Source: Tannerellaceae bacterium
Lineage (GTDB): Bacteria > Bacteroidota > Bacteroidia > Bacteroidales > Tannerellaceae
NCBI GenBank assembly: GCA_031555145.1
Contig: JAVBUR010000040.1
Coordinates: 1 to 42,853, forward strand
DNA: 42,853 nt
Direction: 5' to 3'
In this document: piece by piece, positions 2,292 through 35,182 of the stretch
Layout of the letters: every line of letters starts with the position of its first letter
Numbering within the stretch: position 1 is the first letter of the stretch
Translations under genes and position numbers: made by a program
The notes under the pieces: model-generated
Database searches by the model: none
Seen by the model: only the letters and a program-made list of their open reading frames with translations
Told to the model about the DNA's origin: nothing

Positions 2292-2296
2292 AAGTT

Positions 2297-3559
2297 ATGT
2301 GGACAACCGTAATCCGACAAATGTGGAACGAACGGAAAGGGAATAGCCTGATCTGGTTCGAATTAGTGATTGTGGCTGCTTTTATGTGGTACACTGTTGA
2401 TGCATTGTACATTGCGTATAAGAATTACACCCGACCGTTAGGCTTCGATATCAACCACACCTATCATATCTCACTCGCGGCAATAGATAAAGAGAGTGAA
2501 GCATACGATCAGGCGGCATCCGACGCTGAAACTCCCGGCGACTATTTCTTTACCATACTTGATCGTATCGGTCGGAATCCACAAGTGGAGGCCGTATGCT
2601 ATACCAGCAATAATCATTTTCATTATAAATGGAGTAACCAGTTCAGTACATTCAAAAATGATTCGCTGTCCCGGAATGGGTATGTACGGAATGTAAGTCC
2701 TTCCTATTTTCAGGTATTCAATGTACAATCTGCTAATGACAGGGATCGTGAGGAATTAGGAAAAGTATTGGAGAGAAACGAGATTGTGATTACCAACACT
2801 GTAGCCAATACTTTTTTTGGAAATACATCCAATGCTATGAGTAAGGAAATCCGATGCATTATCCAGAACGAAGACAGTGCCCTCTACAAGATCGGAGCCG
2901 TATGCGAAGCACAACGAACCAATGATTTCCGGGAATATGATTATGCATTTTACCGAAATATACCTGCCGACCAGTTAAGAAAGCATCTTGGAAGCCCGGC
3001 CTACATGAACATCTTCATCCGTATCAAGGCGAATAACGACAGTAAAGCCTTTCCGGAAAAATTCCGTAAAGAAATGCGCGAACAACTCCATGTGGGCAAT
3101 TGCTATCTGGCAAACATTACCCCCATGTCCGAATACAGGGAACAACAAATACGCGAGGGGCTGGATCAAATGCGTATGAACAGTTCTGTCATTGGCTTCT
3201 TTCTGCTAAATGTGCTATTAGGGGTAGTCGGCACCTTCTGGCTTCGCACCCAACGAAAACAAGGTGAAATCGGTCTCCGGTTGGCAGTCGGATCGTCGCA
3301 ATCAGGCATTGCCCGGTTACTTTTCCTGGAGGGAAACATCTTACTATTGGCCGCTTTTATTCCTGCCACCTTGATCTTCATCAACCTGCAATATGCCGGC
3401 GTCATAGAGAGTGTATACGGATTACCGTTTATCCCTCGTTTTCTGACAGGTATGATCATTACTTATTTGTTATTGGCCGGTATGATGGGGGTTGGCATAT
3501 CCTTCCCGGCATGGCGGGCGGTAAAAATTAGTCCGGTAAAGGCATTACATTACGAATAA
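2297..3559 (+). CDS. FtsX-family ABC transporter permease (B-type paralog 1)
   Basis: Start chosen at ATG 2297 (MWTTVIRQMWNERKGNS...) by analogy with the MIRHILTIIWNERK N-termini of paralogs at 4844 and 7421. C-terminal FtsX-like TM bundle ...PAWRAVKISPVKALHYE. Confidence 0.75.
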   Translation: MWTTVIRQMWNERKGNSLIWFELVIVAAFMWYTVDALYIAYKNYTRPLGFDINHTYHISLAAIDKESEAYDQAASDAETPGDYFFTILDRIGRNPQVEAVCYTSNNHFHYKWSNQFSTFKNDSLSRNGYVRNVSPSYFQVFNVQSANDRDREELGKVLERNEIVITNTVANTFFGNTSNAMSKEIRCIIQNEDSALYKIGAVCEAQRTNDFREYDYAFYRNIPADQLRKHLGSPAYMNIFIRIKANNDSKAFPEKFRKEMREQLHVGNCYLANITPMSEYREQQIREGLDQMRMNSSVIGFFLLNVLLGVVGTFWLRTQRKQGEIGLRLAVGSSQSGIARLLFLEGNILLLAAFIPATLIFINLQYAGVIESVYGLPFIPRFLTGMIITYLLLAGMMGVGISFPAWRAVKISPVKALHYE

Positions 3560-3575
3560 GAATAAACAAACAGGT

Positions 3576-4847
3576 ATGTACAAAATATATTTCAAACAAG
3601 CCATCCAGATGCTGAAACAAAACAAGTTTATCAGCATCGTAGCTATCATCGGTACGGCGTTAGCCATTATGATGATCATGGCTATCCTGGTATCCGAAGA
3701 AGTGAAAACGATCAGTGTAGCGCCGGAGGTGAACCGCGACCGGACGTATTACGTCAGTTATCAGGCCGTAAGGGATACCACCAGTGGCATGATGGTGAGT
3801 GGATTCGTCGATTATGATATCATACGCAAATACCTGGCGGAACTGAAAACACCCGAATGTGTATCGGCTGTTAATATGTATGATACACGAACCACCAAAC
3901 TAATCAACACGGAAGGTTCGAATACCTATGTCAATGCCATTGTGCGGATCACTGACGCGAATTACTGGAAGATAATGGCGTTCAATTTTATCGAAGGGAA
4001 ACCATTCGTTCAGGAAGAATTTGACTCCGGCATTCCGGTAGCTGTTATCAGCCAAAACATGGAACGAACGCTATTCAAAGGAGAGAAAGCGCTTGGACAA
4101 ATCATCTTGGTGGAGTTCAAGCCCTACCGGGTCATTGGTATCGTAAAGGATGTCTCACCGGTTTTCAGAATGGCATACGGCCAGGTATGGATCACATATA
4201 CCTCACAGAAAAAGTTTGAACATTCGGGATACCATGTCATGTTGCTAGCACGCAGCAACAATGACTACCCGGCCATGTATGAAGAGGTTCGGAATGTAGA
4301 GAAGAGGTATCATGCCGACAAGAATCCCTGGACCATGTATCTGCGCGGGCCTGAAAATCATCGCATCTACCAGATGGATGTTCGGGCGGGCAATGCCAAT
4401 TCCGTAGCCAAAGGAATCAAGACACAGAACAGGAAGATGGTGTTCATCCTGCTGATACTGCTGCTGATACCGGCCATCAACCTGTCGGGATTCAGTCTTT
4501 CACGTATCAAACGGCGTACCGCTGAAATCGGAGTCCGGAAAGCGTTCGGAGCCAAGCGGTACATCATCCTGATACAGGTGCTTTGTGAAAACCTGATCAC
4601 TTCGCTGATCGGGGGTATGATCGGGCTACTTTTCTCTTATTTGGTGATCTTCCAGATGCGGAGATGGTTGCTCGGAGTCCCGACTGGTAGTGATATTCCT
4701 GGCAGCACGCTTATTTCCCTGCCCGTTTTTATTGCCGTATTCGTCGTATGCCTGCTAATCAACCTGCTCTCTGCCGGTATACCGGCCTACCGGGCTTCCC
4801 AGATGAAAATAATCGATTCACTCAATCAAAACGATAAACAATCATGA
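3576..4847 (+). CDS. FtsX-family ABC transporter permease (A-type paralog 2)
   Basis: 423 aa. N-terminus MYKIYFKQAIQMLKQNKF. C-terminal conserved block RIKRRTAEIGVRKAFGAK...LLSAGIPAYRASQMKIIDSLN. 4-bp overlap with the next gene. Confidence 0.85.
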   Translation: MYKIYFKQAIQMLKQNKFISIVAIIGTALAIMMIMAILVSEEVKTISVAPEVNRDRTYYVSYQAVRDTTSGMMVSGFVDYDIIRKYLAELKTPECVSAVNMYDTRTTKLINTEGSNTYVNAIVRITDANYWKIMAFNFIEGKPFVQEEFDSGIPVAVISQNMERTLFKGEKALGQIILVEFKPYRVIGIVKDVSPVFRMAYGQVWITYTSQKKFEHSGYHVMLLARSNNDYPAMYEEVRNVEKRYHADKNPWTMYLRGPENHRIYQMDVRAGNANSVAKGIKTQNRKMVFILLILLLIPAINLSGFSLSRIKRRTAEIGVRKAFGAKRYIILIQVLCENLITSLIGGMIGLLFSYLVIFQMRRWLLGVPTGSDIPGSTLISLPVFIAVFVVCLLINLLSAGIPAYRASQMKIIDSLNQNDKQS

Positions 4848-6106
4848 TACGCCATATCCTCACCATTATCTGGAACGAACGGAAAACGAATGCCTGGATC
4901 GTTGTCGAATACACCCTTGTCTTCTGTATCCTATGGTTTTGTTGCGACTATCTGTACTTTATAGGGAAATCCTATATCGAGCCGTTGGGGTTTGATATCG
5001 AACATACCTATGCCATTGAGATGGGTGAGAAGGATCAGGAAGGAGATCCCAGTACGAAAGAAGACATATATGCAGATGCTATCACGTTAATGGAACGTGT
5101 CAAACGTTATCCGGGTGTCGAAAGTGTCAGTTTCAGTTCTTCTTCCGTACCCTATTTCCTGAGCTGGAGCGGTAACGGGTATATCGTCAATTCGGATTCC
5201 ACCTGGCAAACCATACAGCTACGAAGAGTAACACCGGGTTACTTTGACGTATTCAGGATAAAGATGGTATCAGGACGTGCCTTCACACCCGAAAACAGCA
5301 ATGATAATACGATACTGATCAGTCCGGACAGAAATAACATGTTTGGTAAAGACAAAAACACCATCCATGCCATATCAGATGTACGTACGCTCCGTACAGC
5401 AGAAGAAGGTGATGATACATATACGGTTACCGGTATCACTGATAAAATGAAAAGGGCATTTTACGAACCATACGAAATCAGTATATTTCAGCCACTAAGC
5501 AGAGATATGTACAACCCGTCATGGAATGAAATCACCATCCGGGTACGTCCGGAAGCCGACAAGAACTTCGCCGAACAATTTACACGCGACATGCGCGAAC
5601 AATTGATGATCGGGTCTTATTTCCTCACCTCCATAACATCCTTGGAGGAGATACGGGATTCCGCCGCCGAATGGAGTGGCATCTGGGCGAACCTGAACAG
5701 CATCTATTCTATCACCGCATTCCTGATCATCAATATCTTCCTCGGTATTATCGGCACCTTCTGGTATCGGACACAGGCACGGCGCAGTGAGATCGGGTTA
5801 CGTATTGCACTGGGGGCCACCAAACGGCAAATCAAGACAATACTCTGTACAGAAACACTGCTATTGTTACTCCTATCCAGCATTATCGGTATCAACATCT
5901 GTCTGAACATCAACCAGACCGACCTGCTGAAAACACTGGGGATCCCGGCAGCCGACAGCGTAGCGGCAGGCAGCGGCATCGAACAATACTTCATCAACTT
6001 TGCCCTCACCTTCGGTTTCCTTGCCCTGGTTTCCCTGGCTGCCGTATGGTACCCGGCACGACAGGCGGCAAATATTCCGCCGGTAGAGGCATTACGAGAA
6101 GAATAA
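4844..6106 (+). CDS. FtsX-family ABC transporter permease (B-type paralog 2)
   Basis: 420 aa. N-terminus MIRHILTIIWNERKTNAW. C-terminal FtsX TM region ...AVWYPARQAANIPPVEALREE. Confidence 0.85.
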   Translation: MIRHILTIIWNERKTNAWIVVEYTLVFCILWFCCDYLYFIGKSYIEPLGFDIEHTYAIEMGEKDQEGDPSTKEDIYADAITLMERVKRYPGVESVSFSSSSVPYFLSWSGNGYIVNSDSTWQTIQLRRVTPGYFDVFRIKMVSGRAFTPENSNDNTILISPDRNNMFGKDKNTIHAISDVRTLRTAEEGDDTYTVTGITDKMKRAFYEPYEISIFQPLSRDMYNPSWNEITIRVRPEADKNFAEQFTRDMREQLMIGSYFLTSITSLEEIRDSAAEWSGIWANLNSIYSITAFLIINIFLGIIGTFWYRTQARRSEIGLRIALGATKRQIKTILCTETLLLLLLSSIIGINICLNINQTDLLKTLGIPAADSVAAGSGIEQYFINFALTFGFLALVSLAAVWYPARQAANIPPVEALREE

Positions 6107-6149
6107 GGAGAGTATGCATTAGTACAGGTAAGAGACACTATTGTTAGCT

Positions 6150-7424
6150 ATGTATAAGATCTATTTCAAACAAGCTATCCAGATGCTGAAGCAGAACAAG
6201 TTCATCAGCATCGTAGCGATCATCGGCACGGCATTGGCCATTATGATGATCATGGCGATACTGGTATCCGAAGAAGTGAAGACGATCAGTGTGGCACCGG
6301 AAATCAACCGTGACCGGACGTTTTATATCCATTATCAGACAGAGCGGGATACGAGCGGCCTCAATCATACTTCAAATTCCGGTTACCTCACTTACAATGT
6401 AGTACGACACTATCTGTCAAACCTGAAAACACCCGAACAGGTATCTGCCATAAGCTCCGAAATATGCCTCACAAACCGAGAAGGGATGAGCGAATATGTC
6501 AATACAGTGGTACGCCAGATCGATGCCTCTTATTGGAAGATACTCGCCTTTACATTTATTGAAGGAAGACCTTTCAGTCAGGAAGAGTTCGAATCAGGCC
6601 TACAGGTTGCCGTGATCAATCAAAGTACCGCCCAACAGTTATTCAAAGGCGAGCAGGCAATCGGACAAACCATCCTGATCGAATTCAAGCCCTATCGGGT
6701 AGTCGGCATTGTTAGAGATGTATCGTCTGTCTTTACAATGGCTCACGGAGATATATGGATCGCCTATACCTCACAACAAAACAATGAATCCAGGAATGCG
6801 TCTATATTCAACCTGATGTTGCTGGCACGAAACACGGATGATTACCCGGCCATCAGTGAAGAAATACGCAAAATGGAAAAGAAATACCAGACAGACAACA
6901 CGGCTAAAACCCTCGAACTGATGGGACCGATAAGCCATCGTACCTATCGGATGAATATTCGAGGGGGCACGGCTGAGAGCATCGCCAAAGAGGTTCAAAT
7001 ACAAAACCGCAAACTGTTATTTATATTGTTGGTCCTGTTGTTGATCCCTGCCATCAACCTGTCAGGCTTCAGCCTGTCGCGCATCAAACGGCGCACGGCG
7101 GAGATTGGTGTCCGGAAAGCGTTCGGTGCCAAACAGTATGTCATCCTGTTCCAGGTACTTTGCGAGAATCTGGTAACCTCTCTAATCGGCGGTGTGATCG
7201 GGCTTCCGCTCTCGTATGTAGTGGTATTCATGATGCGTGACTGGTTACTGAATCTACCCGACGATAGTGTGATCCCAGTCAGCACACTGGTTTCGCTACC
7301 GGTATTACTGGCTGTATTCACCATATGCCTGCTGATTAATCTGTTGTCTGCCGGCATCCCGGCCTACCGGGCTTCATGCATGAAAATAGTCGACTCCATC
7401 AATCAAAACGATAAGCAAGCATGA
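6150..7424 (+). CDS. FtsX-family ABC transporter permease (A-type paralog 3)
   Basis: The ORF track begins at TTG 6141. ATG 6150 gives MYKIYFKQAIQMLKQNKF, identical to the 3576 paralog over about 50 aa. Middle domain diverged, C-terminus conserved. Confidence 0.85.
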   Translation: MYKIYFKQAIQMLKQNKFISIVAIIGTALAIMMIMAILVSEEVKTISVAPEINRDRTFYIHYQTERDTSGLNHTSNSGYLTYNVVRHYLSNLKTPEQVSAISSEICLTNREGMSEYVNTVVRQIDASYWKILAFTFIEGRPFSQEEFESGLQVAVINQSTAQQLFKGEQAIGQTILIEFKPYRVVGIVRDVSSVFTMAHGDIWIAYTSQQNNESRNASIFNLMLLARNTDDYPAISEEIRKMEKKYQTDNTAKTLELMGPISHRTYRMNIRGGTAESIAKEVQIQNRKLLFILLVLLLIPAINLSGFSLSRIKRRTAEIGVRKAFGAKQYVILFQVLCENLVTSLIGGVIGLPLSYVVVFMMRDWLLNLPDDSVIPVSTLVSLPVLLAVFTICLLINLLSAGIPAYRASCMKIVDSINQNDKQA

Positions 7425-8689
7425 TACGACATATCCTTACCATTATCTGGAACGAACGAAAAGCCAATAGCTGGATCGTGATAGAGTACACCTTTGTCTT
7501 TTGCATCCTGTGGTTCTGCTGCGACTACTTGTACTTCATCGGCAAATCATACATGGAGCCACTGGGTTTCAACATTGAACATACTTATCGCATCCAAATG
7601 AAAGAAAGAGACGGCGACAGGGATGCCCGAAAGCAAGAAGACACGTATGCCCATATCCGGCTCTTTCTGGAACGGGTCAAACGCCACCCGGCCATTGAAG
7701 GTGTCAGTATAAGCCAATCGGCGGCACCCTATCTCGGCAGTTTCTCCAGTACCGGTTTTAAAATCAATACGGACTCTGTCTGGCCAACCATACAACAACG
7801 AATGGTTACACCGGATTTTTTCGATGTATTTAAGATCAAGCTACAATCCGGACGCGCCTTTAACGAACAAGAAGACTGGAATAGTATTGTCGCCCTGATA
7901 GCCCCGAACAGGCATCAACGATTTGGAGCAAGAGGAGAACCCGGAATACCGGTTACGGAAGTACGCACAGTCTCCAAAGATTATGAAGAAGGTAAGCAGT
8001 TCCATTCGGTGATTGGTATCACTGCCCCTATAAAAACGACGTTCTATGACCCGTATCGTTGTTGTGTATTTCTACCGATGAACCTGACATATTCCGACCT
8101 GCGCTGGGCGGAAATCATTGTCCGTGTACGACCGAAAGCTGATCGGAACTTTGTCGAACAGTTCACCCGCGACATGCGTGAACAATTGATGATCGGCCCG
8201 TATTTCCTGACAACTGTTACCCCATTAACCAAATTGCGTGATAGCTTCATGAAAGGGCAAGGTATAACATCCAGCCTGAACAGCATCTACTCCATCACCG
8301 CCTTCCTGATCATCAATATCTTCCTCGGCATTATCGGTACCTTTTGGTATCGGACACAGGCACGACGGAGTGAAATCGGACTTCGCATCGCCATGGGTGC
8401 CAGCCGGCGACAGATCGAAACAATGCTATTCGCCGAGACACTACTGCTATTATTCATCGCCAGTGTGATAGGTCTCAACATCTGCCTCAATATCAATCAG
8501 ACTGACTTGTTGCAGGCACTCGGCATCCCTCAATCCGACCATGCACAGGCCGGTATTGGTATCGAACATTACTTTATCAACTACACACTGACCTTCGGTT
8601 TCCTGGCCATCATTTCCCTGGCAGCCGTATGGTATCCGGCACGGCAGGCGGCAAGTATACCACCGGTAGAAGCATTGCAGGAAGAATAA
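7421..8689 (+). CDS. FtsX-family ABC transporter permease (B-type paralog 3)
   Basis: 422 aa. MIRHILTIIWNERKANSW N-terminus. High similarity to the 4844 gene at both termini. Confidence 0.85.
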   Translation: MIRHILTIIWNERKANSWIVIEYTFVFCILWFCCDYLYFIGKSYMEPLGFNIEHTYRIQMKERDGDRDARKQEDTYAHIRLFLERVKRHPAIEGVSISQSAAPYLGSFSSTGFKINTDSVWPTIQQRMVTPDFFDVFKIKLQSGRAFNEQEDWNSIVALIAPNRHQRFGARGEPGIPVTEVRTVSKDYEEGKQFHSVIGITAPIKTTFYDPYRCCVFLPMNLTYSDLRWAEIIVRVRPKADRNFVEQFTRDMREQLMIGPYFLTTVTPLTKLRDSFMKGQGITSSLNSIYSITAFLIINIFLGIIGTFWYRTQARRSEIGLRIAMGASRRQIETMLFAETLLLLFIASVIGLNICLNINQTDLLQALGIPQSDHAQAGIGIEHYFINYTLTFGFLAIISLAAVWYPARQAASIPPVEALQEE

Positions 8690-8755
8690 ATACCAAATAA
8701 CACAACCCTATTCAATAAAATCTTTATTTTTACATGTTCAAGAAGTGAATGCCCC

Positions 8756-10117
8756 ATGATATTGATTTGTGACGACGATGTAACCGTTCGTACCACCCTC
8801 ACACTGGTACTCAAACGGGCAGGATATGAAGTAGCAACGGCTGCCACGCGGCAGGAGGCAATCGACTTTGTACGCCATACCGAGCCGCAACTCATCCTGA
8901 TGGATATGAACTACAGCCAGACGACCACGGGTGAAGAAGGATTGGAACTACTGGCGCAGGCCAAGGTGTTCCGTCCCGATGTGCCGGTGATCCTGATCAC
9001 GGCCTGGGGGTCGATCGGGTTGGCAGTACAGGGCATACGCGCCGGGGCATTCGACTTCGTCACCAAGCCCTGGAACAACGTGGCGCTACTGAACAGTATC
9101 CAGACGGCTATCCAATTGAACGAAGAAAGCCGGAAAGAGATTCCGGACAGCCTTACCTCCCCGGGTAAATCGTTGCGTAACGATAAGATCATCGGTCGTT
9201 CCCCACTCCTACAACAGGTAATGAACACAGTTGCCCGTATTGCCCATACCAGCGCACCTGTTCTGATCACCGGCGAAAGCGGTACAGGTAAAGAACTCAT
9301 CGCTGAAGCCATCCATGAAGGCAGCAACCGTAACAAAGGAACTTTTGTTAAAGTTAACCTGGGAGGTATCTCCCAGTCGTTATTCGAAAGCGAGATGTTC
9401 GGACACAAACAGGGAGCCTTCACCGATGCCCGGCACGACCGGGTGGGACGGTTTGAACTGGCGAACAAGGGTAGCATCTTCCTCGACGAGATCGGCGAAC
9501 TCGACCTCGTATGCCAGGTTAAGCTGTTGCGTGTATTACAGGATCAGACCTTCGAACCGCTTGGCGACAGTAAACCCCGGCAAGTGGATACCCGCATCAT
9601 CAGCGCCACCAATCGTAACCTGACCGAGATGGTCGCACAGGGATCATTCCGCGAAGACCTGTTCTACCGCATCAACCTGATTACCATCCGGATGCCTTCG
9701 CTGCGTGAACGGTTGGAAGATATTCCACTGCTGGCAGATCATTTTGCCCGGAAACAGACCAAACTGAATGGATTACCGCCTGTCGAAATAGCGCCGGACG
9801 CTATTCGATACCTGCAACAACTGCCTTTCCCGGGTAATATCCGCGAACTGAAGAACCTGGTAGACCGCACTCTACTGGTATCCGGCCACCAACGGATCAC
9901 AGAGGCCGACTTTCGCGAACAATACGTAGAGATACCCTCCGGGCACGAACCGGAAGCCAGTTCCGTGCAGTCGCTCGAACGAATTGAGAAGAACATGATC
10001 CTCCGGGCAATCAAACTCTATGGATCGAACCACTCTAAGATCGCTACCGCCCTGGGTGTGAGCAGGCAAACGCTCTACCGGCGCCTCGAGAAATACGATA
10101 TCAAACTCCCTGAATAA
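8756..10117 (+). CDS. sigma-54-dependent Fis-family response regulator (NtrC-like)
   Basis: N-terminal receiver domain (ICDDD...LILMDMNY...KP), AAA+ sigma54-interaction domain (GESGTGKE, GAFTDA, ESELFGH-like), C-terminal Fis HTH (KIATALGVSRQTLYRRLEKYDI). Confidence 0.9.
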   Translation: MILICDDDVTVRTTLTLVLKRAGYEVATAATRQEAIDFVRHTEPQLILMDMNYSQTTTGEEGLELLAQAKVFRPDVPVILITAWGSIGLAVQGIRAGAFDFVTKPWNNVALLNSIQTAIQLNEESRKEIPDSLTSPGKSLRNDKIIGRSPLLQQVMNTVARIAHTSAPVLITGESGTGKELIAEAIHEGSNRNKGTFVKVNLGGISQSLFESEMFGHKQGAFTDARHDRVGRFELANKGSIFLDEIGELDLVCQVKLLRVLQDQTFEPLGDSKPRQVDTRIISATNRNLTEMVAQGSFREDLFYRINLITIRMPSLRERLEDIPLLADHFARKQTKLNGLPPVEIAPDAIRYLQQLPFPGNIRELKNLVDRTLLVSGHQRITEADFREQYVEIPSGHEPEASSVQSLERIEKNMILRAIKLYGSNHSKIATALGVSRQTLYRRLEKYDIKLPE

Positions 10118-10118
10118 G

Positions 10119-11420
10119 ATGCGACGGAAGTGGTTATTCTGGATCATCGCCTGTATCCTGTCGGGATCACTGATCGGTATCGGTTGGGTATTTTTCCGCG
10201 AAGACATCACATCGTTATGGGTAATCGAAGGGATTGCGATGATCGCGATCCTGTTGGCAGTCCTGCTCTACCAGAAGTTGATCAAACCCTACAACCTGAT
10301 ACTAAGCGGTATGCAACTGCTGAATGAACAGGACTTCTCCACCAGCCTTCGTCCTGTTAAAAACAAGGATGCCGACCAGTTGATCAGTGTATTCAACCGG
10401 ATGATCACCCACCTCAGGCACGAACGGCTATTGGTTCGCGAGAAGAACCAGTTTCTCGACCTGCTGATCAATGCTTCGCCACAAGGTATCATCATTCTCA
10501 ATTTCGACCGCCGCATCACCGAAGCGAATGCTTCCGGACTCAAATTGCTGGGAGTTGACAGCCTGACCGATATACAAGGACTGCGCTTCGACGAACTGAC
10601 CTTCGAACTGGCACCTTCCCTCGCCGCACTGAAACCAGGCGAAGACGTCATCATCCGCGGTGCAGGAGGCTATGCCTACCGCTGTGTCTATTCGTCGTTT
10701 GTGGATAACGGTTTCGACCATCCCTTTATCCTGATTGAGGAACTCAGTCATGAGTTGATTAAGATCGAAAAGGCGTCCTACGACCGGATTATCCGCATGA
10801 TGTCGCACGAAGTGAATAATTCCGTCGGGGCTATCGGAGCTACATTGAATGTCGTTTCCGATATCTTCCGGCATGATGAGGCACAACGCTGGGATGACGT
10901 CCTGCCGGCCGTCGAAGCCTCTTATGAACGTTGTGGCCGGTTGGCACACTTTATCGGCAATCTGGCCGAAGTTGTCAAGATACCCGAACCGTCCCTGTCG
11001 GATATTTCCCTCAACGAGCAGGTTCGGTCGGTATACGCCCTCACCAGCAGCGAATGCCGACAACGCGACATCACACTAACACTATCACTGGCCGAGCCCG
11101 ACACCCTGATCCGGGTAGACGGTATTCAGTTCGAACAGGTGCTGGTAAATATTATCAAGAATGCCTATGAAGCCATCGGCACCCACGGTGAGATACGGAT
11201 TGCCACCACAGCCTCTCCCCTCTCCATCCGGATAGAGAACAACGGCCCTGCTATCGACGAGGCTGTCCGCCAGAAACTCTTCACCCCCTTCTTCACGACA
11301 AAGACTACCGGACACGGTATCGGACTGATGTTTGTTCGCGACGTCCTCATCAACCACCACTGCAAATTCAATCTCAGCAGTCAGGACGGATGGACACGGT
11401 TTGAAATCCTTTTTACCTGA
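10119..11420 (+). CDS. sensor histidine kinase (two TM helices with a minimal extracytoplasmic loop, PAS-like, HisKA, HATPase_c)
   Basis: TM1 LFWIIACILSGSLIGIGWVFF and TM2 WVIEGIAMIAILLAVLLY are separated by about 7 residues. H-box MSHEVNNSVGAI. G-boxes ...NNGPAIDE... and GHGIGL. The start is adjacent to the response-regulator stop. Confidence 0.85.
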   Translation: MRRKWLFWIIACILSGSLIGIGWVFFREDITSLWVIEGIAMIAILLAVLLYQKLIKPYNLILSGMQLLNEQDFSTSLRPVKNKDADQLISVFNRMITHLRHERLLVREKNQFLDLLINASPQGIIILNFDRRITEANASGLKLLGVDSLTDIQGLRFDELTFELAPSLAALKPGEDVIIRGAGGYAYRCVYSSFVDNGFDHPFILIEELSHELIKIEKASYDRIIRMMSHEVNNSVGAIGATLNVVSDIFRHDEAQRWDDVLPAVEASYERCGRLAHFIGNLAEVVKIPEPSLSDISLNEQVRSVYALTSSECRQRDITLTLSLAEPDTLIRVDGIQFEQVLVNIIKNAYEAIGTHGEIRIATTASPLSIRIENNGPAIDEAVRQKLFTPFFTTKTTGHGIGLMFVRDVLINHHCKFNLSSQDGWTRFEILFT

Positions 11421-11432
11421 TCACAAAAAGAA

Positions 11433-11454
11433 AGCCGGACATCAACATCCGGCT
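11433..11454. terminator. bidirectional hairpin terminator between convergent genes
   Basis: aGCCGGAcatcaacaTCCGGCt: a 6-7 bp GC-rich stem between the HK stop (11420) and the stop of the minus-strand lipoprotein (11487). Confidence 0.5.
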
Positions 11455-11486
11455 TCTCCTGTTAAACTAAAATGTACTTGCCAAAC

Positions 11487-11837
11487 TTATTTTACGCCTT
11501 TTTCTTTAACGGTCACTGACAATGTTACTGACTTACCATCCTTATCCTTTACAGTAACTGTAGCTGTTCCTTTCTTGACACCTTTTACGGTAAAGTCTTT
11601 CTTTGTATCCGCAACAGTAGCGATGTCTTTGCTGGACGATTCTACTTTATAAGGAGGAATACCACCTTTAATGTTGACCGTCTTTGATGTAGCACCTTCT
11701 GCCACTTCGATCTTGGTTTCGCTCAACGACAGTTTTACCGGTTTCGGATCATCTTTATCGCAACTTACCAGAAAAGCAGTTGCCAATACAGCCACACAGA
11801 AAACAGTTTTGATACCGGATAAATGGAAATTTTTCAT
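11487..11837 (-). CDS. small lipoprotein with bacterial Ig-like (BIG2) domain
   Basis: Start chosen at MKNFHLSGIKTVFCVAVLATAFLVSC (signal peptide with lipobox LVSC). Repetitive KGxKKGTATVTVKDKDGKSVTLSVTV is typical of Big_2. The ORF track extension to 11876 adds a non-signal N-terminus. Confidence 0.55.
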   Translation of the reverse strand: MKNFHLSGIKTVFCVAVLATAFLVSCDKDDPKPVKLSLSETKIEVAEGATSKTVNIKGGIPPYKVESSSKDIATVADTKKDFTVKGVKKGTATVTVKDKDGKSVTLSVTVKEKGVK

Positions 11838-11987
11838 GTTGAAATAATTAAATGTTAATAAATAAGATATTGTCAATTAAGTAAGGCGTTCGGCATGAAG
11901 GATCGCCTTTCATATATATTGATGCCAACCCGATGCTAAAGACTGCATGCCCGATGAAAAAAATAATCATTTATATTCGGGAATCTC

Positions 11988-13169
11988 TCAAAAGACATAC
12001 CGGATCCCGGAACCAATCCCTGGGAGCAAGGGCTTTTCCGTACGAATGCTGAGCGGTTGACTATTATTGAAATAATACGACAATTTGGGTTCCAGATAGA
12101 TTTCCCAATCTTTCGACAAACGATAGGATATCCCTGCCGACAGTTGTAACGACCATTGCCAGCCATCCATCCGGGCCTTCCGTTCGACCACCTTGTCAGA
12201 CGCATATAATCGCTGTGTCAATTCAGCCTGCAAACCTTTTTCAGCCATTATTCCGCCCGAAGTATACAACCGCCAACTCGGATGACTCTGCCACAGGTTG
12301 GCGGTGAATGACAAGGGAATGCCTATATAATGTAGTTTCAAATCGGCTTTATACATATAATTCACATCCCTGTAGGACGTTGAAAGATAGCTATACATCA
12401 CGCCTGTCTCCACACCGAATGTCTGGTTTAACTCTTTATGTACCAATACCCCGACTGAAAACGGCGGAGCAAACCCCAGGTCAGTGATTGCTGTTGGATC
12501 AGGCAAGAACTCGGGTCCCTGGCTCAGCAATGGTGAGTCATTATCAGTCTTACTGCCCGACATGGAGACAGTCGCCGCCAGCGTCCATGCCCGTGATGAC
12601 TTTGCCCGGTTCGGTTTATCTTGTTTTGTGTATGGACGGTATCCGGAAGGACGTTTACCGGAAGGAGTAGGCGGACCAACGGATTGATCCGCCCGGGGAA
12701 CTGCCAGTGTAGTCGCCTCGGCAGTTTCTCCCTCCCTTTCTTCCGGTACAGCAGATGTGTCAGGGGGAACATCTGCTGCTTCCCGTTCAGCAATTACAGC
12801 CGGAGCAACGTATCGTTCTTCCGACAGTAACGGAACGGAAGTTTCACTTCCGGAAGTACTTCCGATAACCTGTTCTTGTTTTTTAATATCCTGCCTGGCA
12901 ACTGTTCCTACGGGAAGAAGTTGATCATCCTCCGTTATCCTCGCCAGAGAAAATACCAGCAGAAAGAGTGCCGCGACCATAGCAGCTGATCCGACCACAC
13001 GCAGAAATAGTTTCGCTGTTCTCCTTCGGTTCAAGCTTCGGTCTATGCGTTTCCAACAATCCTCATCCACTTCAAACGAGTAGTTCTCGATCGTTTGCTG
13101 TATGTATTGATTGAATAGTTCCTGTTTTGCAGGAAAGTTGTTATTGTGCGTGTGCATACATTTGTTCAT
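11988..13169 (-). CDS. ECF sigma-associated membrane protein (putative anti-sigma factor) with C-terminal OMP beta-barrel-like domain
   Basis: Overlaps the stop of the upstream ECF sigma gene. About 55 aa cytoplasmic N-terminus, one TM (LFLRVVGSAAMVAALFLLVF), about 150 aa Pro/Ser/Thr/Glu-rich low-complexity linker, then a C-terminal ~170 aa region with alternating hydrophobic strands ending GIGSGIRYVF (OMP beta-signal-like). Confidence 0.6.
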   Translation of the reverse strand: MNKCMHTHNNNFPAKQELFNQYIQQTIENYSFEVDEDCWKRIDRSLNRRRTAKLFLRVVGSAAMVAALFLLVFSLARITEDDQLLPVGTVARQDIKKQEQVIGSTSGSETSVPLLSEERYVAPAVIAEREAADVPPDTSAVPEEREGETAEATTLAVPRADQSVGPPTPSGKRPSGYRPYTKQDKPNRAKSSRAWTLAATVSMSGSKTDNDSPLLSQGPEFLPDPTAITDLGFAPPFSVGVLVHKELNQTFGVETGVMYSYLSTSYRDVNYMYKADLKLHYIGIPLSFTANLWQSHPSWRLYTSGGIMAEKGLQAELTQRLYASDKVVERKARMDGWQWSLQLSAGISYRLSKDWEIYLEPKLSYYFNNSQPLSIRTEKPLLPGIGSGIRYVF

Positions 13170-13773
13170 TTACTGATGTTATCATTTTCTGGAGTATCTT
13201 CCGCGCCCGGGTCAATTGGGACTGTGAAGTACTTTCCTTGATATTCAACATAGCGGCAATCTCGCTATGCGAGTAACCTTCCACCACGTAGAGATTGAAA
13301 ACCGTACCATACCCCGCCGGCAGGCGGGCAATACAGTCATACAGTTCATCAGCCGATATCTTACTCAGCACCGAAGGATTCATATCGTCTTCCATCAGGG
13401 CACAATCTTCTACCGGTACATTCAGTTTAAAGACATTATTCTGGCGTAAATACTCAAGGGAGGTGGTTACAAAGATGCGTCTCACCCATCCGGCAAAAGA
13501 TCCCTCACCCTTATAGGATCCAATATGGGTAAAGAGTTTAACAAACCCCTCCTGTAAGAGGTCTTGTGCCGTGTCCGGATCATTATTCACATACCTGCGA
13601 CAGACCCCCAACATAACAGGAGCATATGTTGTATACAATAATCGTTGAGATTTGGCGTCACCTCGTAAGCATCCGTTAATCAAAGACTGTTCGTCCGTGA
13701 TTGAAGGCGTTTTCATCACATTCATAGTCATCCGGATGCGTTTGATACCGACATCCGATTTTATGATGCACAA
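13141..13773 (-). CDS. RNA polymerase ECF-type sigma-70 factor
   Basis: Region 2 (LLQEGFVKLFTHIGSYKGEGSFAGWVRRI) and region 4 HTH (VVEGYSHSEIAAMLNIKESTSQSQLTRARKIL). The true start may be an internal Met (MTMNVMKTPSITDEQ, around 13716-13731). The longest ORF is given. Confidence 0.75.
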   Translation of the reverse strand: MCIIKSDVGIKRIRMTMNVMKTPSITDEQSLINGCLRGDAKSQRLLYTTYAPVMLGVCRRYVNNDPDTAQDLLQEGFVKLFTHIGSYKGEGSFAGWVRRIFVTTSLEYLRQNNVFKLNVPVEDCALMEDDMNPSVLSKISADELYDCIARLPAGYGTVFNLYVVEGYSHSEIAAMLNIKESTSQSQLTRARKILQKMITSVNEQMYAHAQ

Positions 13774-13818
13774 AACGGACGAAACACTGCACGCCCATTC
13801 ATTAAATTTCAGAAAAAA

Positions 13819-20969: not shown

Positions 20970-22256
20970 ATGGCAATTATTGATGTTGTAAAATGGGATG
21001 GCAGTCCCGATATTTTCGCATGGAAATTCCCTGAAGAAAATCTGACAACATTCACACAGTTAATCGTGAATGAATCACAGGAAGCTGTATTCTTCCACAA
21101 AGGAGCGATTATAGCTGTATTCGGTCCGGGGAAACACGTACTCTCGACAGAGAATATACCTATTCTTGAAAAGCTGTATGGAATACCGTTTGGTGGTAAA
21201 AATCCTTTTACGGCGGAAGTATGGTTTGTCAACAAGGTAAAAGTACTGGATATCAAATGGGGGACCAACCCACCCTTCCAGATACGGGATCCGCAGTATC
21301 GTGTATTTGTCCCGGTCCGTGCATTCGGTCAATTCGGGATACAAATTACGGATGCCAAATCTTTTCTTGTTAAGTTAGTGGGTACAGTACCTGCATTCCG
21401 GCAGGAAGATATTTCCTCTTACTTCAAAGGATTACTGATGGCAGAATCGACTTCAATCATTGCGAAGAAAATAACCGAAGATAAAGTCTGCGTTCTTGAT
21501 ATTGCCACACAGATACTTCCTCTTTCGAAAGCATTAAAAGAGAATATACAGCAGGAATTTGCGGAATACGGAATCACCCTTGTCAACTTTTACATCAATT
21601 CCATTTCCATTCCGGAAGGAGACCCTGCAGTTTCACAATTAAAGACTCTCCTTTCCAGAAAGGCAGAAATGGAAGTATTAGGCTTTACCTATCAACAGGA
21701 AAGAGCTTACAACGTATTGGAAAATGCAGCCGGCAACCAAGGGACTGTCGGCAACACCATGGGAGCCGGTATCGGCATGGGAATGGGATTAGGAGTTGGT
21801 GGTATTATGGGAGGCATGATGCAGGAAGTAGGTCATCAGGTACGTGGAGAATCGGCCGTTTGCCCTCATTGCAAAAAGACCATTCCGGCAGGAGTCAATT
21901 TCTGTCCCGTATGTGGGAAGAAGATTACTTCCAGTGGCGCCACTGTTTCCACAGTAATTTGTAATAACTGCCAAAAGGAAATGCCGGCTACATCAAAATA
22001 CTGTCCTCATTGCGGCGACATCTACAATGCCTGCCCGGAATGCAAAACCGACAATCCAACAAATGCCACCCAATGCGTCAACTGCGGCTGTTTAATGCCT
22101 ATTCATTGCCCTAAGTGTAATGCAAAAGTAAACAGAGATGCCAGATTTTGTCCCGAATGTGGAGAACGGATTGCCCAAATATGTCCTAAATGCAATCAGG
22201 CAGTTAACCCTGGAAGCAAATTTTGTCCCTCTTGCGGGGAGAACCTGAGTAGATAG
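20970..22256 (+). CDS. SPFH/Band-7 family protein (YdjI-like, Band_7_1 type) fused to five C-terminal zinc ribbons
   Basis: N-terminus IIDVVKWDGSPDIFAWKFP...ESQEAVFFHKGAIIAVFGPGKHVLSTENIPIL...TAEVWFVNK follows the pattern of B. subtilis YdjI-type SPFH proteins. Gly/Met-rich linker (GAGIGMGMGLGVGGIMGG). Then 5 x CxxC-x(10-17)-CxxC. Confidence 0.7.
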   Translation: MAIIDVVKWDGSPDIFAWKFPEENLTTFTQLIVNESQEAVFFHKGAIIAVFGPGKHVLSTENIPILEKLYGIPFGGKNPFTAEVWFVNKVKVLDIKWGTNPPFQIRDPQYRVFVPVRAFGQFGIQITDAKSFLVKLVGTVPAFRQEDISSYFKGLLMAESTSIIAKKITEDKVCVLDIATQILPLSKALKENIQQEFAEYGITLVNFYINSISIPEGDPAVSQLKTLLSRKAEMEVLGFTYQQERAYNVLENAAGNQGTVGNTMGAGIGMGMGLGVGGIMGGMMQEVGHQVRGESAVCPHCKKTIPAGVNFCPVCGKKITSSGATVSTVICNNCQKEMPATSKYCPHCGDIYNACPECKTDNPTNATQCVNCGCLMPIHCPKCNAKVNRDARFCPECGERIAQICPKCNQAVNPGSKFCPSCGENLSR

Positions 22257-22266
22257 AGGTCTTTTT

Positions 22267-22995
22267 ATGGAGAAGAATATTGACTTCGTTAAAATATTAT
22301 GCTTAGGGAGAAAAGGACTTGGACCAATTATCGCACCTTGCTTAACGATAATTCTTGCTCCGCTCGGTTTTCTCTACAGCCTCTTTTATTGTACCAAAGT
22401 AAAGATACATAAGACACCTACCTGGTATATCGGAGATAATTTACATTTGGGTTATGCTCTCTTCTGGGGTTCCATTATTTTGTCATTAGGCTTTCTCTTT
22501 ATAATGGGATATTTTATTGATGACACCCCTGATGATCTTGAGGTCTTTTTTTATTCTATCGGATTGCCATTTACTTTAAGTGGCTTTTCTATCATACTCT
22601 ATCAATTCAGATACAAAGAGTATAAAGGAATCATGAATGCGCTTCTTGGTGAAATTGCATTCTCTCAGACTCAAGAGAAGAGAACTTTGGAGGAGAATAT
22701 CCGCATCAATATTATACGTCCATCCGCTTCTTTTAATCTTACAGAGATGCTGGATGATCTCAAAAAGAATGCCGTCATTAACTACAACATTTATGGCGAT
22801 TCTATTCACATTGAGGTTTTAAGTCCTACATTAAAAGAATATTGTTTTGACGAAAACGATCCTTCCCTTTACGAAGAATGGGAATGCAGATCATGCGGAG
22901 CAAACAACAGAGTAAGGAAAGTCCATGCTGAAAATATCCAATGCGTATATTGTGGTACAGAGAAACTCTCCAGTGCGGAGAGCCCAAGTAAATAA
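22267..22995 (+). CDS. membrane protein with C-terminal zinc ribbon (paralog 1)
   Basis: 242 aa. Two or three predicted TM helices after a short cytoplasmic N-terminus. C-terminal EEWECRSCGANNRVRKVHAENIQCVYCGTEK. Confidence 0.6.
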   Translation: MEKNIDFVKILCLGRKGLGPIIAPCLTIILAPLGFLYSLFYCTKVKIHKTPTWYIGDNLHLGYALFWGSIILSLGFLFIMGYFIDDTPDDLEVFFYSIGLPFTLSGFSIILYQFRYKEYKGIMNALLGEIAFSQTQEKRTLEENIRINIIRPSASFNLTEMLDDLKKNAVINYNIYGDSIHIEVLSPTLKEYCFDENDPSLYEEWECRSCGANNRVRKVHAENIQCVYCGTEKLSSAESPSK

Positions 22996-23006
22996 AACCC
23001 AGCCAT

Positions 23007-23699
23007 ATGGAGGAGAAAATTGATTTAGTAAAAAAACTGCATTTAAAGAAAGAAGGGATCGGACCGTATGTTCTACTCTGCTTTACAATAGTCCTTTCTC
23101 CTATTGCTTGTATCCACAGTTTTTATTACATGTCCAAAACGAGAATAAACAGGGTTCCAGCTTTGTATATTACAGATAATTTCCACTTGGGTTATTACTG
23201 GAGCCTTTTCATATTTTTAGCAGGTATCTACTTTTTTATATCCTACTCTAACAATCCGGCACCTGATGTTGCCGATCAACTCTTTTTCTATGCTGCAGTA
23301 TTACCTTGGCTATTAAGCAGTTTTCCTCTCATGATGTATCAAATTGCAAGTATACTTGATAGAGAGGCAAGGAATATACTCCTTAAGGATATCACAATAT
23401 CTCGTGTTCAGAAGAAAACTTCTTTGGAGAAAAACATACACAAGACGGGGTTTAAATACAATATCACAGACATGCTGAAGGATCTCAAAGAGAATGCAGT
23501 TATTGACTATAGAAACGATGATGAAACCATCTATATAGAAGTACTGAATCCCTATTTAAAAGGGTATTGTCTTGACGAAAACGATTCATCCTTATATGAA
23601 GAATGGGAATGTAAGTCATGCGGAGCAAATTACAGAACAAGTAAATTCTATACCGAAAACTTCCAATGCGAATATTGCGGGACAGAGAAACCCGCATAA
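23007..23699 (+). CDS. membrane protein with C-terminal zinc ribbon (paralog 2)
   Basis: 230 aa. Same architecture and conserved blocks as the preceding gene (DLKENAVIDY, EEWECKSCGANYRTSKFYTENFQCEYCGTEK). Confidence 0.6.
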   Translation: MEEKIDLVKKLHLKKEGIGPYVLLCFTIVLSPIACIHSFYYMSKTRINRVPALYITDNFHLGYYWSLFIFLAGIYFFISYSNNPAPDVADQLFFYAAVLPWLLSSFPLMMYQIASILDREARNILLKDITISRVQKKTSLEKNIHKTGFKYNITDMLKDLKENAVIDYRNDDETIYIEVLNPYLKGYCLDENDSSLYEEWECKSCGANYRTSKFYTENFQCEYCGTEKPA

Positions 23700-23816
23700 A
23701 GCATTCAAACGCGACCAAACGCAAAGTCTTCCAACATAGTTACATTTGTCAATACACATCCATCTATTCGAGTTCGTATATTGTGAAAAAATGCAATAAC
23801 GTAGCCCTTTATTCGT

Positions 23817-23824: not shown

Positions 23825-23846
23825 CACCACCATTTAGATACATCGG

Positions 23847-35177: not shown

Positions 35178-35182
35178 AAAAA

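What the first reader, a model, noticed from the sequence alone, without database searches (positions are those of the whole stretch)
11988..13773. ECF sigma factor paired with a protein that could span the whole envelope: IM anchor, Pro-rich linker and OMP-like beta-barrel with a C-terminal beta-signal
The gene overlapping the ECF sigma stop encodes no classical zf-HC2 anti-sigma domain. It encodes a short cytoplasmic N-terminus, a single TM helix and a ~150-aa Pro/Ser/Thr/Glu-rich segment long enough to cross the periplasm. Its C-terminal ~170 aa have amphipathic beta-strand periodicity and end in ...GIGSGIRYVF, resembling the BAM beta-signal of outer-membrane proteins. By inference this is a single-polypeptide trans-envelope signalling device (an outer-membrane sensor barrel tethered to an inner-membrane anti-sigma anchor). 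That would replace the usual TonB-dependent transducer plus FecR pair.
Basis: inference. Interest (0 to 1): 0.6.

Follow-up and report, generated by a model that had tools for sequence, protein, structure and literature searches.

The report
Envelope-spanning anti-sigma factor (Dma/Reo type)

Summary

**Anatomy.** On the minus strand, an ECF sigma gene (13141-13731) overlaps the start of a 393-aa gene (11988-13169). That protein has:
- a conserved ~50-aa cytoplasmic N-terminus;
- one TM helix (about residues 54-76);
- an unconserved, disordered tether of about 115 aa;

**Conservation.** A homologous sigma gene lies directly upstream, on the same strand, in 75 of 75 related Bacteroidales loci with enough flank.

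[quoted passage not shown] Dma1 was shown to bind its sigma through residues 1-40 and to place its barrel in the outer membrane.

**New here:**
- A conserved ECF-type promoter. The family consensus is TGCAAC-N16-GCATC; the window's clade has TGCAGT instead, co-varying with an R-to-Q, F/Y-to-L change in the sigma 4.2 helix.
- The promoter occurs exactly twice in the window: before the sigma gene and before a small Big_2 lipoprotein gene, a predicted regulon member.
- Loop L4, probably extracellular, is the most conserved element of the barrel protein.

**Verdict.** New member of a known kind. Low interest.

The parts
13141..13731 (-). ECF sigma factor gene (196 aa from the ATG at 13731; the longest ORF runs from a TTG at 13773). 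It is a Das/EcfO-like partner of the barrel protein.
   Evidence: Sigma70_r2 50.4 bits, Sigma70_r4_2 58 bits, TIGR02937 96.8 bits. It is 35-64% identical to the sigma gene directly upstream of the homologous barrel gene in 75 loci. It is 41% identical to the sigma of a NigD1/2-linked locus, L081.
11988..13169 (-). Dma-type anti-sigma gene (393 aa; alternative start at Met5, 13157), stop codon included.
   Evidence: ORF. Exact protein P0001 exists in NCBI. Architecture.
13014..13169 (-). Residues 1-52: cytoplasmic N-terminal segment, the presumed sigma-binding region. The family motif is D.F...LE.H..PVD...W..I, and Trp39 is invariant.
   Evidence: Invariant W39 and motif conservation in 41 family members. 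AF2 helices 12-29 and 36-79. In Bt Dma1, residues 1-40 pull down Das1 (PMC10927553).
12942..13013 (-). Residues 53-76: single alpha-helical transmembrane anchor, N-in.
   Evidence: Kyte-Doolittle maximum 2.45. RRR lies on the N-terminal side and EDD on the C-terminal side. AF2 gives a continuous helix 36-79.
12594..12941 (-). Residues 77-192: disordered periplasmic tether rich in Pro, Ser, Thr and Glu.
   Evidence: pLDDT < 50 over most of 81-190. Only 12% identity to distant homologues, against 43% for the barrel. Composition.
11991..12593 (-). Residues 193-393: eight-stranded outer-membrane beta-barrel (OMP_b-brl_2) with C-terminal ...GIGSGIRYVF.
12030..12071 (-). Residues 367-380: loop L4 between strands 7 and 8 (FNNSQPLSIRTEKP), the most conserved element of the family.
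   Evidence: Mean majority-residue frequency 0.77, against 0.57-0.70 for the strands and 0.19-0.34 for the other loops, in 41 sequences. The extracellular position is inferred from OmpA-like topology.
13764..13791 (-). Predicted ECF promoter of the sigma-dma operon: TGCAGT-N16-GCATCA, starting 59 nt before the sigma ATG.
   Evidence: Best hit in the whole window for a PWM trained only on other loci. Exact pattern match. The homologous motif lies upstream of sigma in at least 50 loci.
11920..11947 (-). Second copy of the same promoter motif, in the 150-nt gap between dma and the Big_2 lipoprotein gene.
   Evidence: Second-best PWM hit in the window. It is one of only two matches at up to 1 mismatch, with 0.09 expected.
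11487..11837 (-). Small lipoprotein gene (116 aa; lipobox LVSC followed by DKDD; one Big_2-like Ig domain). It is the predicted local regulon member.
   Evidence: Big_2 20.5 bits, below the 22.8 threshold. It is 41-43% identical to the Big_2 lipoprotein of the NigD-Big_2-sigma-Dma loci L081-L083, and homologues lie directly after dma in L002, L012, L021, L032, L037 and L038.
11431..11456 (-). Intrinsic terminator closing the unit.
   Evidence: 11-bp stem followed by a T run. No terminator-like site lies between dma and the lipoprotein gene.

Best explanation
This is a sigma/anti-sigma pair of the Dma (Dual membrane-spanning anti-sigma; EcfO-Reo / Das-Dma) kind.

**Proposed mechanism**
1. The 393-aa protein inserts N-in into the inner membrane by one helix.
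2. Its first ~50 residues hold the co-translated ECF sigma at the membrane.
3. An unconserved, disordered tether of about 115 residues crosses the periplasm.
4. The C-terminal ~200 residues fold as an eight-stranded barrel in the outer membrane.
5. Damage to, or a ligand at, the outer membrane is sensed through the barrel or tether. The conserved L4 loop is a candidate site.
6. This leads to proteolysis of the anti-sigma and release of the sigma.
7. The sigma then transcribes from TGCAGT-N16-GCATCA promoters. These drive its own operon (positive autoregulation) and a probably surface-exposed Big_2 lipoprotein gene next door, plus unknown targets elsewhere in the genome.

**Shown here:** domain anatomy, barrel fold, synteny, promoter motif and its two sites.

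**Inferred from homologues:** sigma binding, dual localisation, stress trigger and proteolytic release.
For: - **Anatomy.** Pfam OMP_b-brl_2. TM helix and charge bias. AF2 gives helix, disordered stretch, then an 8-strand barrel at pLDDT > 90.
- **Coupling to sigma.** The genes overlap by 17-29 nt. A sigma homologue lies directly upstream in 75 of 75 loci with flank. Overlaps are typical in 42 extracted pairs.
- **Selection pattern.** The N-terminus (22-26% identity) and the barrel (43%) are conserved; the tether (12%) is not.
- **Link to characterised systems.**
  - Relatives P0083 and P0085 lie in loci ordered NigD, Big_2, sigma, barrel protein.
  - Their NigD scores 207 bits on NCBIfam 'BT4005_BT4719 NigD1/NigD2 family'. 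This is the published BT_4719-4721 layout.
  - NigD_C-like lipoprotein genes follow dma in 7 Rikenellaceae loci.
- **Promoter.**
  - ATGCAAC-N16-GCATC lies 31-53 nt before the sigma start in 27 loci with the exact motif, and in at least 50 by PWM.
  - The two best PWM hits in the window are the sites before sigma and before the Big_2 gene.
  - The exact pattern occurs twice, with 0.09 expected.
  - The -35 variant AGT co-varies with sigma 4.2 'SQSQL' (7 of 7); AAC co-occurs with 'SRSQ[FYL]' (49 of 49).
- **Literature.** PMC10927553, PMC9308784, PMC13114119.
Against: - Nothing was measured for this protein. Sigma binding, localisation and the signal all rest on homology of 26-33% overall identity.
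- An AF2 test of sigma with the N-terminus could not be run.
- Membership of the sigma in group ECF21 was not tested, because no ECF-group models were available.
- No NigD gene is in the window, and the characterised regulons centre on NigD.
- The L081-type (EcfO-like) loci show a different -10-like element, so this clade may be a paralogue with a different regulon.
- Each promoter site alone scores 9-10 bits on the cross-clade PWM, within the range of shuffled maxima. The case rests on their joint position, strand, identical variant and the covariation.
- That covariation is a single clade event.
- SLA|R after the hydrophobic stretch could in principle be a signal-peptidase site.
Confidence: 0.85

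Rival explanations
1. An ordinary small outer-membrane protein ('porin family protein', as relatives are annotated). Its N-terminal 76 residues would be an extended, cleaved signal peptide. It would be a target or neighbour of the sigma factor rather than its anti-sigma.
For: A source names a relative 'porin family protein'. The barrel alone resembles OmpA, OmpX and OprF. S-L-A precedes Arg77, which fits the -3/-1 rule for signal peptidase I (sequence).
Against: - The hydrophobic stretch is about 23 residues and is preceded by 52 hydrophilic residues. These carry a family-conserved motif with an invariant Trp. That is unlike a Sec n-region.
- Gene overlap with sigma, and 75 of 75 synteny.
- Natural fusions exist in which sigma is joined directly to the TM, tether and barrel (P0018, P0019, P0026).
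- Full-length Dma1 carrying both N- and C-terminal tags was detected in Bt membranes.
Confidence: 0.05
2. An inner-membrane anti-sigma factor whose beta-barrel is a soluble periplasmic sensor domain that is not inserted in the outer membrane.
Against: - The Pfam family is outer-membrane specific.
- One face of most strands is hydrophobic, and the C-terminus ends in an aromatic beta-signal-like motif.
- In Bt, only barrel peptides and fragments are found in outer-membrane vesicles.
Confidence: 0.05
3. A Dma-type protein that is constitutively cleaved in the tether, so that the barrel and the anchor act as two separate proteins. The barrel would not signal to the sigma.
For: C-terminal fragments of Dma1 occur in OMVs. 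Some relatives carry promoter-like sites inside the dma gene, about 375 nt before the stop, which could express a truncated product or the downstream gene.
Against: Full-length Dma1 is seen in cells. Transposon hits in the P. vulgatus gene, mapped in the paper onto its transmembrane and barrel regions (Fig. 6b), de-repress the regulon. No internal site of this kind is present in the window gene.
Confidence: 0.05

Closest known systems
Dma1/Das1 of Bacteroides thetaiotaomicron (BT_4721/BT_4720), with Reo/EcfO of B. fragilis and P. vulgatus (M0N98_03760/61)
   Same: - ECF sigma gene immediately upstream.
- Short N-terminal sigma-binding segment, one TM helix, long disordered linker and an OMP_b-brl_2 eight-stranded barrel.
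- Restricted to Bacteroidota.
- Lipoprotein genes alongside, including a Big_2 lipoprotein homologous to the window's.
   Different: - Only about 32% identity over the barrel and 41% for the sigma, measured against the NigD-linked representative L081.
- No NigD gene in the window.
- Promoter -35 is TGCAGT and -10 is GCATCA, whereas L081-type loci show TGCAAG ... AGATTTAAT.
- At 393 aa it is the shortest of the 22 family members whose tether was measured.
- Orthology versus paralogy with Dma1 is unresolved.
Dma3 of B. thetaiotaomicron (BT_2778) and the fused relatives P0018, P0019 and P0026
   Same: Same TM, tether and OMP_b-brl_2 barrel, including the conserved ...YYFN...IRTEKP... L4 motif.
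   Different: In those proteins the sigma domains are fused in cis directly to the TM helix, with no separate anti-sigma segment. Here the sigma is a separate gene.
FecI/FecR/FecA-type trans-envelope signalling (in Bacteroidota: ECF sigma + FecR anti-sigma + SusC with an STN domain)
   Same: It works similarly in that an outer-membrane barrel relays a surface event to an inner-membrane anti-sigma and an ECF sigma.
   Different: That route uses two proteins and depends on TonB. The anti-sigma has FecR and FecR_C domains, and the barrel is a 22-strand plugged transporter. No such domains are present here. A classical set exists separately at 33359-40882.
RseA/sigma-E envelope stress response of E. 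coli
   Same: The sigma is RpoE-like (1or7, E 5e-13). An anti-sigma holds sigma at the inner membrane, and release by regulated proteolysis on outer-membrane stress is the presumed logic.
   Different: RseA ends in the periplasm and senses unfolded OMP C-termini through DegS. Here the anti-sigma is itself an outer-membrane protein. There is no RseA-family match.
OmpA, OprF, OmpX and NspA small outer-membrane barrels
   Different: Those proteins have a cleaved signal peptide and variable surface loops. Here the N-terminus is an uncleaved inner-membrane anchor with a tether, and loop L4 is the most conserved segment.

Membership tests
Dma (dual membrane-spanning anti-sigma) family | Encoded next to, and co-transcribed with, an ECF sigma factor | tested here: met
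   The start overlaps the sigma stop by 17-29 nt. A sigma homologue lies directly upstream in 75 of 75 related loci with flank.
Dma (dual membrane-spanning anti-sigma) family | C-terminal eight-stranded outer-membrane beta-barrel (OMP_b-brl_2) | tested here: met
Dma (dual membrane-spanning anti-sigma) family | Single N-terminal alpha-helical TM segment with a cytoplasmic N-terminus | tested here: met
   Kyte-Doolittle peak at residues 54-76, with RRR before and EDD after. AF2 helix 36-79.
Dma (dual membrane-spanning anti-sigma) family | Long intrinsically disordered linker between the TM helix and the barrel | tested here: met
   Residues 81-190 have pLDDT < 50. 40% P/S/T/E. 12% identity to distant homologues. 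The measured span from TM end to strand 2 is 158-222 residues in 22 family members.
Dma (dual membrane-spanning anti-sigma) family | N-terminal ~40 residues bind and sequester the cognate sigma | not testable with these tools
   Only indirect support: the motif D.F..LE.H..PVD...W..I is conserved, with invariant W39.
Dma (dual membrane-spanning anti-sigma) family | Physical presence in both membranes | not testable with these tools
   This needs fractionation or tagging. It was shown only for Bt Dma1 (PMC10927553).
Dma (dual membrane-spanning anti-sigma) family | Restricted to Bacteroidota | tested here: met
   All 80 related genome loci are Bacteroidales or Bacteroidota. The window carries SusC and SusD genes.
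Dma (dual membrane-spanning anti-sigma) family | Partner sigma belongs to ECF group ECF21 | not tested
   No ECF-group models were available. The sigma is generic sigma70-ECF and 41% identical to the sigma of a NigD1/2-linked locus.
Dma1/EcfO-Reo orthologue group specifically | NigD-family lipoprotein genes adjacent or in the regulon | tested here: not met
   No NigD homologue in the 42.8-kb window at E < 0.01. The local predicted target is a Big_2 lipoprotein. The rest of the genome was not available. NigD_C-like genes follow dma in 7 Rikenellaceae relatives.
FecR-type anti-sigma / TonB-dependent transducer signalling | FecR and FecR_C domains in the anti-sigma; STN, Plug and TonB_dep_Rec barrel in the partner | tested here: not met
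   None of these domains is found in the 393-aa protein at E <= 1. They are present in a different locus of the window.
ZAS / class I anti-sigma (zf-HC2, RsrA/RslA-like) | HxxxCxxC zinc motif and a four-helix anti-sigma domain of about 80-90 aa | tested here: not met
   No Pfam or NCBIfam hit. The cytoplasmic part is only about 52 aa with 1.5 helices. Cys38 is not conserved.
Autotransporter (type Va) | 12-strand beta-domain (PF03797) with a passenger domain | tested here: not met
   PF03797 scores only 15.7 bits against a threshold of 26. The model has 8 strands.

The most novel reading that the evidence does not exclude
The window's pair may belong to a distinct Dma lineage (with L001, L002, L003, L012, L021 and L032) that has re-tuned its promoter specificity.

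- The -35 element is TGCAGT instead of TGCAAC, matched by R-to-Q and F/Y-to-L changes in the sigma 4.2 recognition helix.
- Its conserved local output is a small Big_2 lipoprotein, which is probably surface-exposed, rather than NigD.
- This would insulate the lineage from the canonical EcfO/Das1 circuit in genomes that carry several Dma pairs.
- The near-invariant L4 loop (FDNNQPxSxRT) would be the sensing site at the cell surface.
Probability: 0.35. Interest if true: 0.35.

Novelty: new member of a known kind. Interest (0 to 1): 0.22.

Why it matters
**Practical value.** These genes are usually annotated only as 'porin family protein' or 'hypothetical' next to an ECF sigma. They should be read as Dma-type trans-envelope anti-sigma factors.

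**Modest additions for the field.**
- A cross-genus promoter consensus (TGCAAC-N16-GCATC), with a clade-specific switch in both the -35 element and the sigma 4.2 helix. Given a whole genome, this lets the regulon be predicted from sequence.
- A recurrent Big_2 lipoprotein partner, found in two diverged Dma groups.
- The observation that the putative surface loop L4 is the most conserved part of the protein. That makes it the obvious place to look for the still unknown signal.

None of this changes the known picture of the family.

Tried and rejected
- **afdb50 fold search.** This could have hit the B. thetaiotaomicron Dma1-3 models directly, but the library was unavailable.
- **Bt sequences.** Dma1/2/3 sequences could not be obtained.
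  - The single genome-contig scan went to the family pattern and returned no Bacteroides sensu stricto locus.
  - The PNAS paper has no supplement held.
  - The EcfO paper PMC3536166 is not held.
  - The link to Dma1 therefore rests on the NigD1/2-linked loci L081-L083.
- **First search for related loci attempt.** The 18-sequence alignment failed for lack of a conserved stretch. It was redone with 8 sequences.
- **The look-up of encoding contigs for the window's own protein.** Nothing was returned, so the organism is known only as Bacteroidales-like.
- **Natural sigma-Dma fusions as a substitute.** Rejected, because they lack a separate anti-sigma segment.
- **The ~270-aa lipoprotein.** It heads the operon in L001, L003, L012, L021 and L032. 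It was tested as a divergent NigD and shows no similarity by BLASTP, Pfam or NCBIfam.
- **PDB sequence search with the family profile.** No solved relative.
- **Bacteroidetes O-glycosylation motif D-[ST]-[AILVMT].** None is present in the protein.
- **Large representative-protein search and the second AF2 job.** Deliberately not used, because they could not change the verdict.
Full report
**1. What is in the sequence**

Both genes lie on the minus strand. ORF 13141-13773 encodes an ECF sigma factor:
- Sigma70_r2 scores 50.4 bits and Sigma70_r4_2 scores 58 bits.
- TIGR02937 sigma70-ECF scores 96.8 bits.
- Its closest solved relatives are RpoE/AlgU-type sigmas.
- The listed TTG start at 13773 lies inside the predicted -10 element, so the ATG at 13731 (MTMNVMK...) is the likely start.

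ORF 11988-13169 (393 aa) begins 29 nt before the sigma stop codon. With the NCBI start at Met5 (exact protein P0001, 389 aa) the overlap is 17 nt.

No anti-sigma domain of any Pfam or NCBIfam family is detected at E <= 1.

The protein has one hydrophobic stretch, residues about 54-76. RRR precedes it and EDD follows it, which indicates an N-in orientation. Residues 77-230 are 40% P/S/T/E. Residues 188-367 match PF13568 OMP_b-brl_2 at 49.7 bits against a gathering score of 27. The protein ends GIGSGIRYVF.

**2. Structure**

An AlphaFold2 model built on an 18-sequence alignment gives:

| Element | Residues | Confidence |
|---|---|---|
| Helix | 12-29 | moderate |
| Helix, including the TM segment | 36-79 | moderate |
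| Disordered stretch | most of 81-190 | pLDDT < 50 |
| Barrel | 195-392 | pLDDT mostly > 90 |

The barrel has eight long strands. A 30-residue loop separates strands 1 and 2.

In most strands a hydrophobic face alternates with a polar or small-residue face. The C-terminus has G at -5, Y at -2 and F at 0. This fits the BAM beta-signal pattern as I know it from the literature.

**3. Conservation and context**

Homologues are few and distant in the word-indexed protein search (62% for one, then about 30%). A scan of species-representative genomes found 80 loci. All are in Bacteroidales or Bacteroidota: Dysgonomonas, Parabacteroides, Paludibacter, Muribaculaceae, Prevotellaceae, Tannerellaceae and Rikenellaceae/Alistipes.

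- **Sigma pairing.** A homologue of the window's sigma (35-64% identity) lies directly upstream on the same strand in 75 of these loci. The other five have fewer than 650 nt of upstream flank, so the count is 75 of 75 testable.
- **Overlap.** In 42 fully extracted pairs the sigma stop and dma start usually overlap by 17-35 nt.
- **Conservation within the protein.** The barrel is 43% identical to distant homologues, the cytoplasmic N-terminus 22-26% and the tether 12%.
- **N-terminal motif.** The N-terminus carries the family motif D.F...LE.H..PVD...W..I, with invariant Trp39.
- **Tether length.** The measured span from TM end to strand 2 is always long: 158-222 residues in 22 members. The window protein is the shortest. 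Even so, about 115 residues before strand 1 are ample to cross a periplasm if extended.

**4. It is a known kind**

Full-text search shows that this architecture is published.
- Evans et al. [quoted passage not shown]
- Pardue et al. [quoted passage not shown] They reported four main results:
  - Dma1 (BT_4721) residues 1-40 pull down the ECF21 sigma Das1 (BT_4720).
  - Full-length Dma1 is made.
  - Only its barrel reaches outer-membrane vesicles.
  - The family is confined to Bacteroidota.
- The 2024 paper also describes Dma2 and the sigma-fused Dma3.

My data tie the window to these systems in three ways.
- Relatives P0083 and P0085 sit in human-gut contigs with the gene order NigD, Big_2 lipoprotein, ECF sigma, barrel protein. 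Their NigD scores 207 bits on the NCBIfam model 'BT4005_BT4719 NigD1/NigD2 family'. This is the BT_4719-4721 layout.
- The window's sigma is 41% identical to that sigma, its barrel is 32% identical, and its downstream lipoprotein is 41-43% identical to that Big_2 lipoprotein.
- Sigma-fused relatives (P0018, P0019, P0026; about 500 aa) correspond to the Dma3 design.

**5. What the sigma probably transcribes**

*Family consensus.* K-mer enrichment in the 200 nt upstream of the sigma genes of 66 loci gave ATGCAAC (34 loci against 0.4 expected) and TGCATC. The two elements sit at a fixed spacing, GCAAC-N16-GCATC, 31-53 nt before the start codon in 27 loci with the exact motif. A PWM finds the motif in at least 50 loci. 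This has the form of an ECF promoter: an AAC-containing -35 element and a 16-nt spacer.

*Sites in the window.* A PWM trained only on other loci was used to scan both strands of the window.
- The top two hits were 13759-13794, just upstream of sigma, and 11915-11950, in the gap before the small lipoprotein gene. Both are on the coding strand.
- Both sites read TGCAGT-N16-GCATCA. At up to one mismatch this pattern occurs only at these two places, with 0.09 expected and 0 of 100 shuffles reaching two.
- Caveat: the exact pattern was defined after seeing the sites.
- Caveat: each site alone (9-10 bits) is within the range of shuffled maxima.

*Covariation.* The TGCAGT variant is shared by the window's closest relatives, L001, L002, L003, L012, L021 and L032.
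- All 7 AGT loci have 'SQSQL' in the sigma 4.2 helix.
- All 49 AAC loci have 'SRSQ[F/Y/L]'.
- This is one clade, hence one evolutionary event. It is still a coherent switch of protein and DNA specificity, and it supports the promoter assignment.

*Operon structure.*
- In the AGT clade the Big_2 gene usually follows dma within 26-50 nt.
- In several AGT-clade members the promoter precedes an extra ~270-aa lipoprotein gene at the head of the operon.
- In the window the Big_2 gene is 150 nt downstream and has its own promoter copy.
- A strong terminator follows the Big_2 gene (11431-11456). No terminator lies between dma and the Big_2 gene.

*Other family members.* The gene after dma is nearly always a lipoprotein gene, but a different one in different groups:

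| Downstream gene | Loci |
|---|---|
| LVIVD-repeat lipoprotein | 14 |
| NigD_C-like lipoprotein | 7 |
| Big_2 lipoprotein | 6 |
| Serpin | 6 |

The window's Big_2 lipoprotein has the lipobox LVSC followed by DKDD. To my knowledge this resembles the acidic surface-export signal of Bacteroidota lipoproteins. This was not tested.

**6. Mechanism**

*Shown here:* the anatomy, the membrane-barrel fold, obligate pairing with the sigma, and the promoter motif with its two sites.

*Inferred from Dma1 and Reo:* the N-terminus sequesters the sigma at the inner membrane, the barrel sits in the outer membrane, envelope stress leads to proteolysis and sigma release, and the sigma autoregulates.

*New inference:* loop L4 between strands 7 and 8 (FDNNQPxSxRT) is the most conserved element of the whole protein. 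Its majority-residue frequency is 0.77, against 0.57-0.70 for the strands and 0.19-0.34 for the other loops. By OmpA-like topology L4 faces outward or plugs the lumen. That makes it a candidate sensing site.

**7. Rivals**

Three alternatives were considered. Each is disfavoured but not excluded for this particular protein.
- An ordinary OMP with an extended, cleaved signal peptide. This is possible because SLA|R follows the hydrophobic stretch.
- A periplasmic soluble barrel.
- Constitutive cleavage that uncouples the barrel from the anchor.

The evidence for and against each is listed in the structured fields.

**8. Verdict**

The system is a new member of the published Dma/Reo family, not a new device. 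It coexists with a classical ECF/FecR/SusC set in the same window, so it does not replace that route. Whether it is the Dma1 orthologue or a paralogous lineage with changed promoter specificity remains open. Interest is low, and the small additions are the promoter consensus with its covariation, the Big_2 partner and the conserved L4 loop.

Noticed in passing
window 33359-40882 (+): A classical Bacteroidota trans-envelope set lies in the same window. It comprises an ECF sigma (33359-33916), a FecR/FecR_C anti-sigma (34017-35177), a SusC-like TonB-dependent receptor with STN, Plug and barrel domains (35186-38815), and SusD (38840-40882).
   Followed up: partly
window 305-11420 (+): An ABC ATPase is followed by six tandem MacB_PCD/FtsX permease paralogues (840-8689). 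Next come a sigma-54-dependent response regulator (8756-10117) and a PAS histidine kinase (10119-11420), convergent with the dma operon. A sigma-54 activator gene also flanks Dma loci L081, L011, L028, L029, L030 and L035.
   Followed up: partly
L023 ~5899, L048 ~5869, L052 ~5137, L056 ~1986, L058 ~1267: In Paludibacter-group relatives a strong copy of the ECF promoter motif (17.6-25.8 bits) lies inside the dma gene, about 375 nt before its stop. It could drive the next gene downstream, a ~151-aa ORF in L052, L056 and L058, or a truncated barrel product.
   Followed up: no
L018 (Parabacteroides sp. PM6-13), sigma hits at 4427-4954 and 8819-9343; L003 and L037 from one MAG; L059 and L066 from one MAG: Some genomes carry two or more sigma-Dma pairs of this subfamily, in one case in tandem. 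Paralogous expansion therefore occurs.
   Followed up: no
L081 1830-1870 and 2660-2700; L083 equivalents: The NigD-linked (EcfO/Dma1-like) loci share a different promoter-like motif, TGCAAG-N14/15-AGATTTAAT, before both the NigD gene and the Big_2 gene. The -35 element is similar to the window clade's, but the -10 is unlike its GCATC.
   Followed up: partly
L001 3139-3951, L003 3638-4456, L012 2674-3474, L021 3591-4400, L032 2814-3623: A ~270-aa lipoprotein family with no Pfam or NCBIfam match and no similarity to NigD is the first gene of the operon in the window's closest relatives, directly after the TGCAGT promoter. It is absent from the window.
   Followed up: partly
P0093 (572 aa, ENA): A distant relative carries the N-terminal 'PP..VW..IQ' motif twice in tandem before the TM helix, and it ends ...GSGIRYRF.
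   Followed up: no
window 22001-24000: GC content drops to 0.37-0.40, against about 0.50 elsewhere. The dip covers the ORFs at 22267-22995 and 23007-23699. This may be an acquired segment.
   Followed up: no
L004, L016, L031, L040, L042, L053 (downstream of dma): A serpin-family lipoprotein gene (Serpin, 372 bits in the L004 representative scanned) directly follows dma in six relatives, most of them labelled Paludibacter. This is an unusual candidate regulon member.
   Followed up: no
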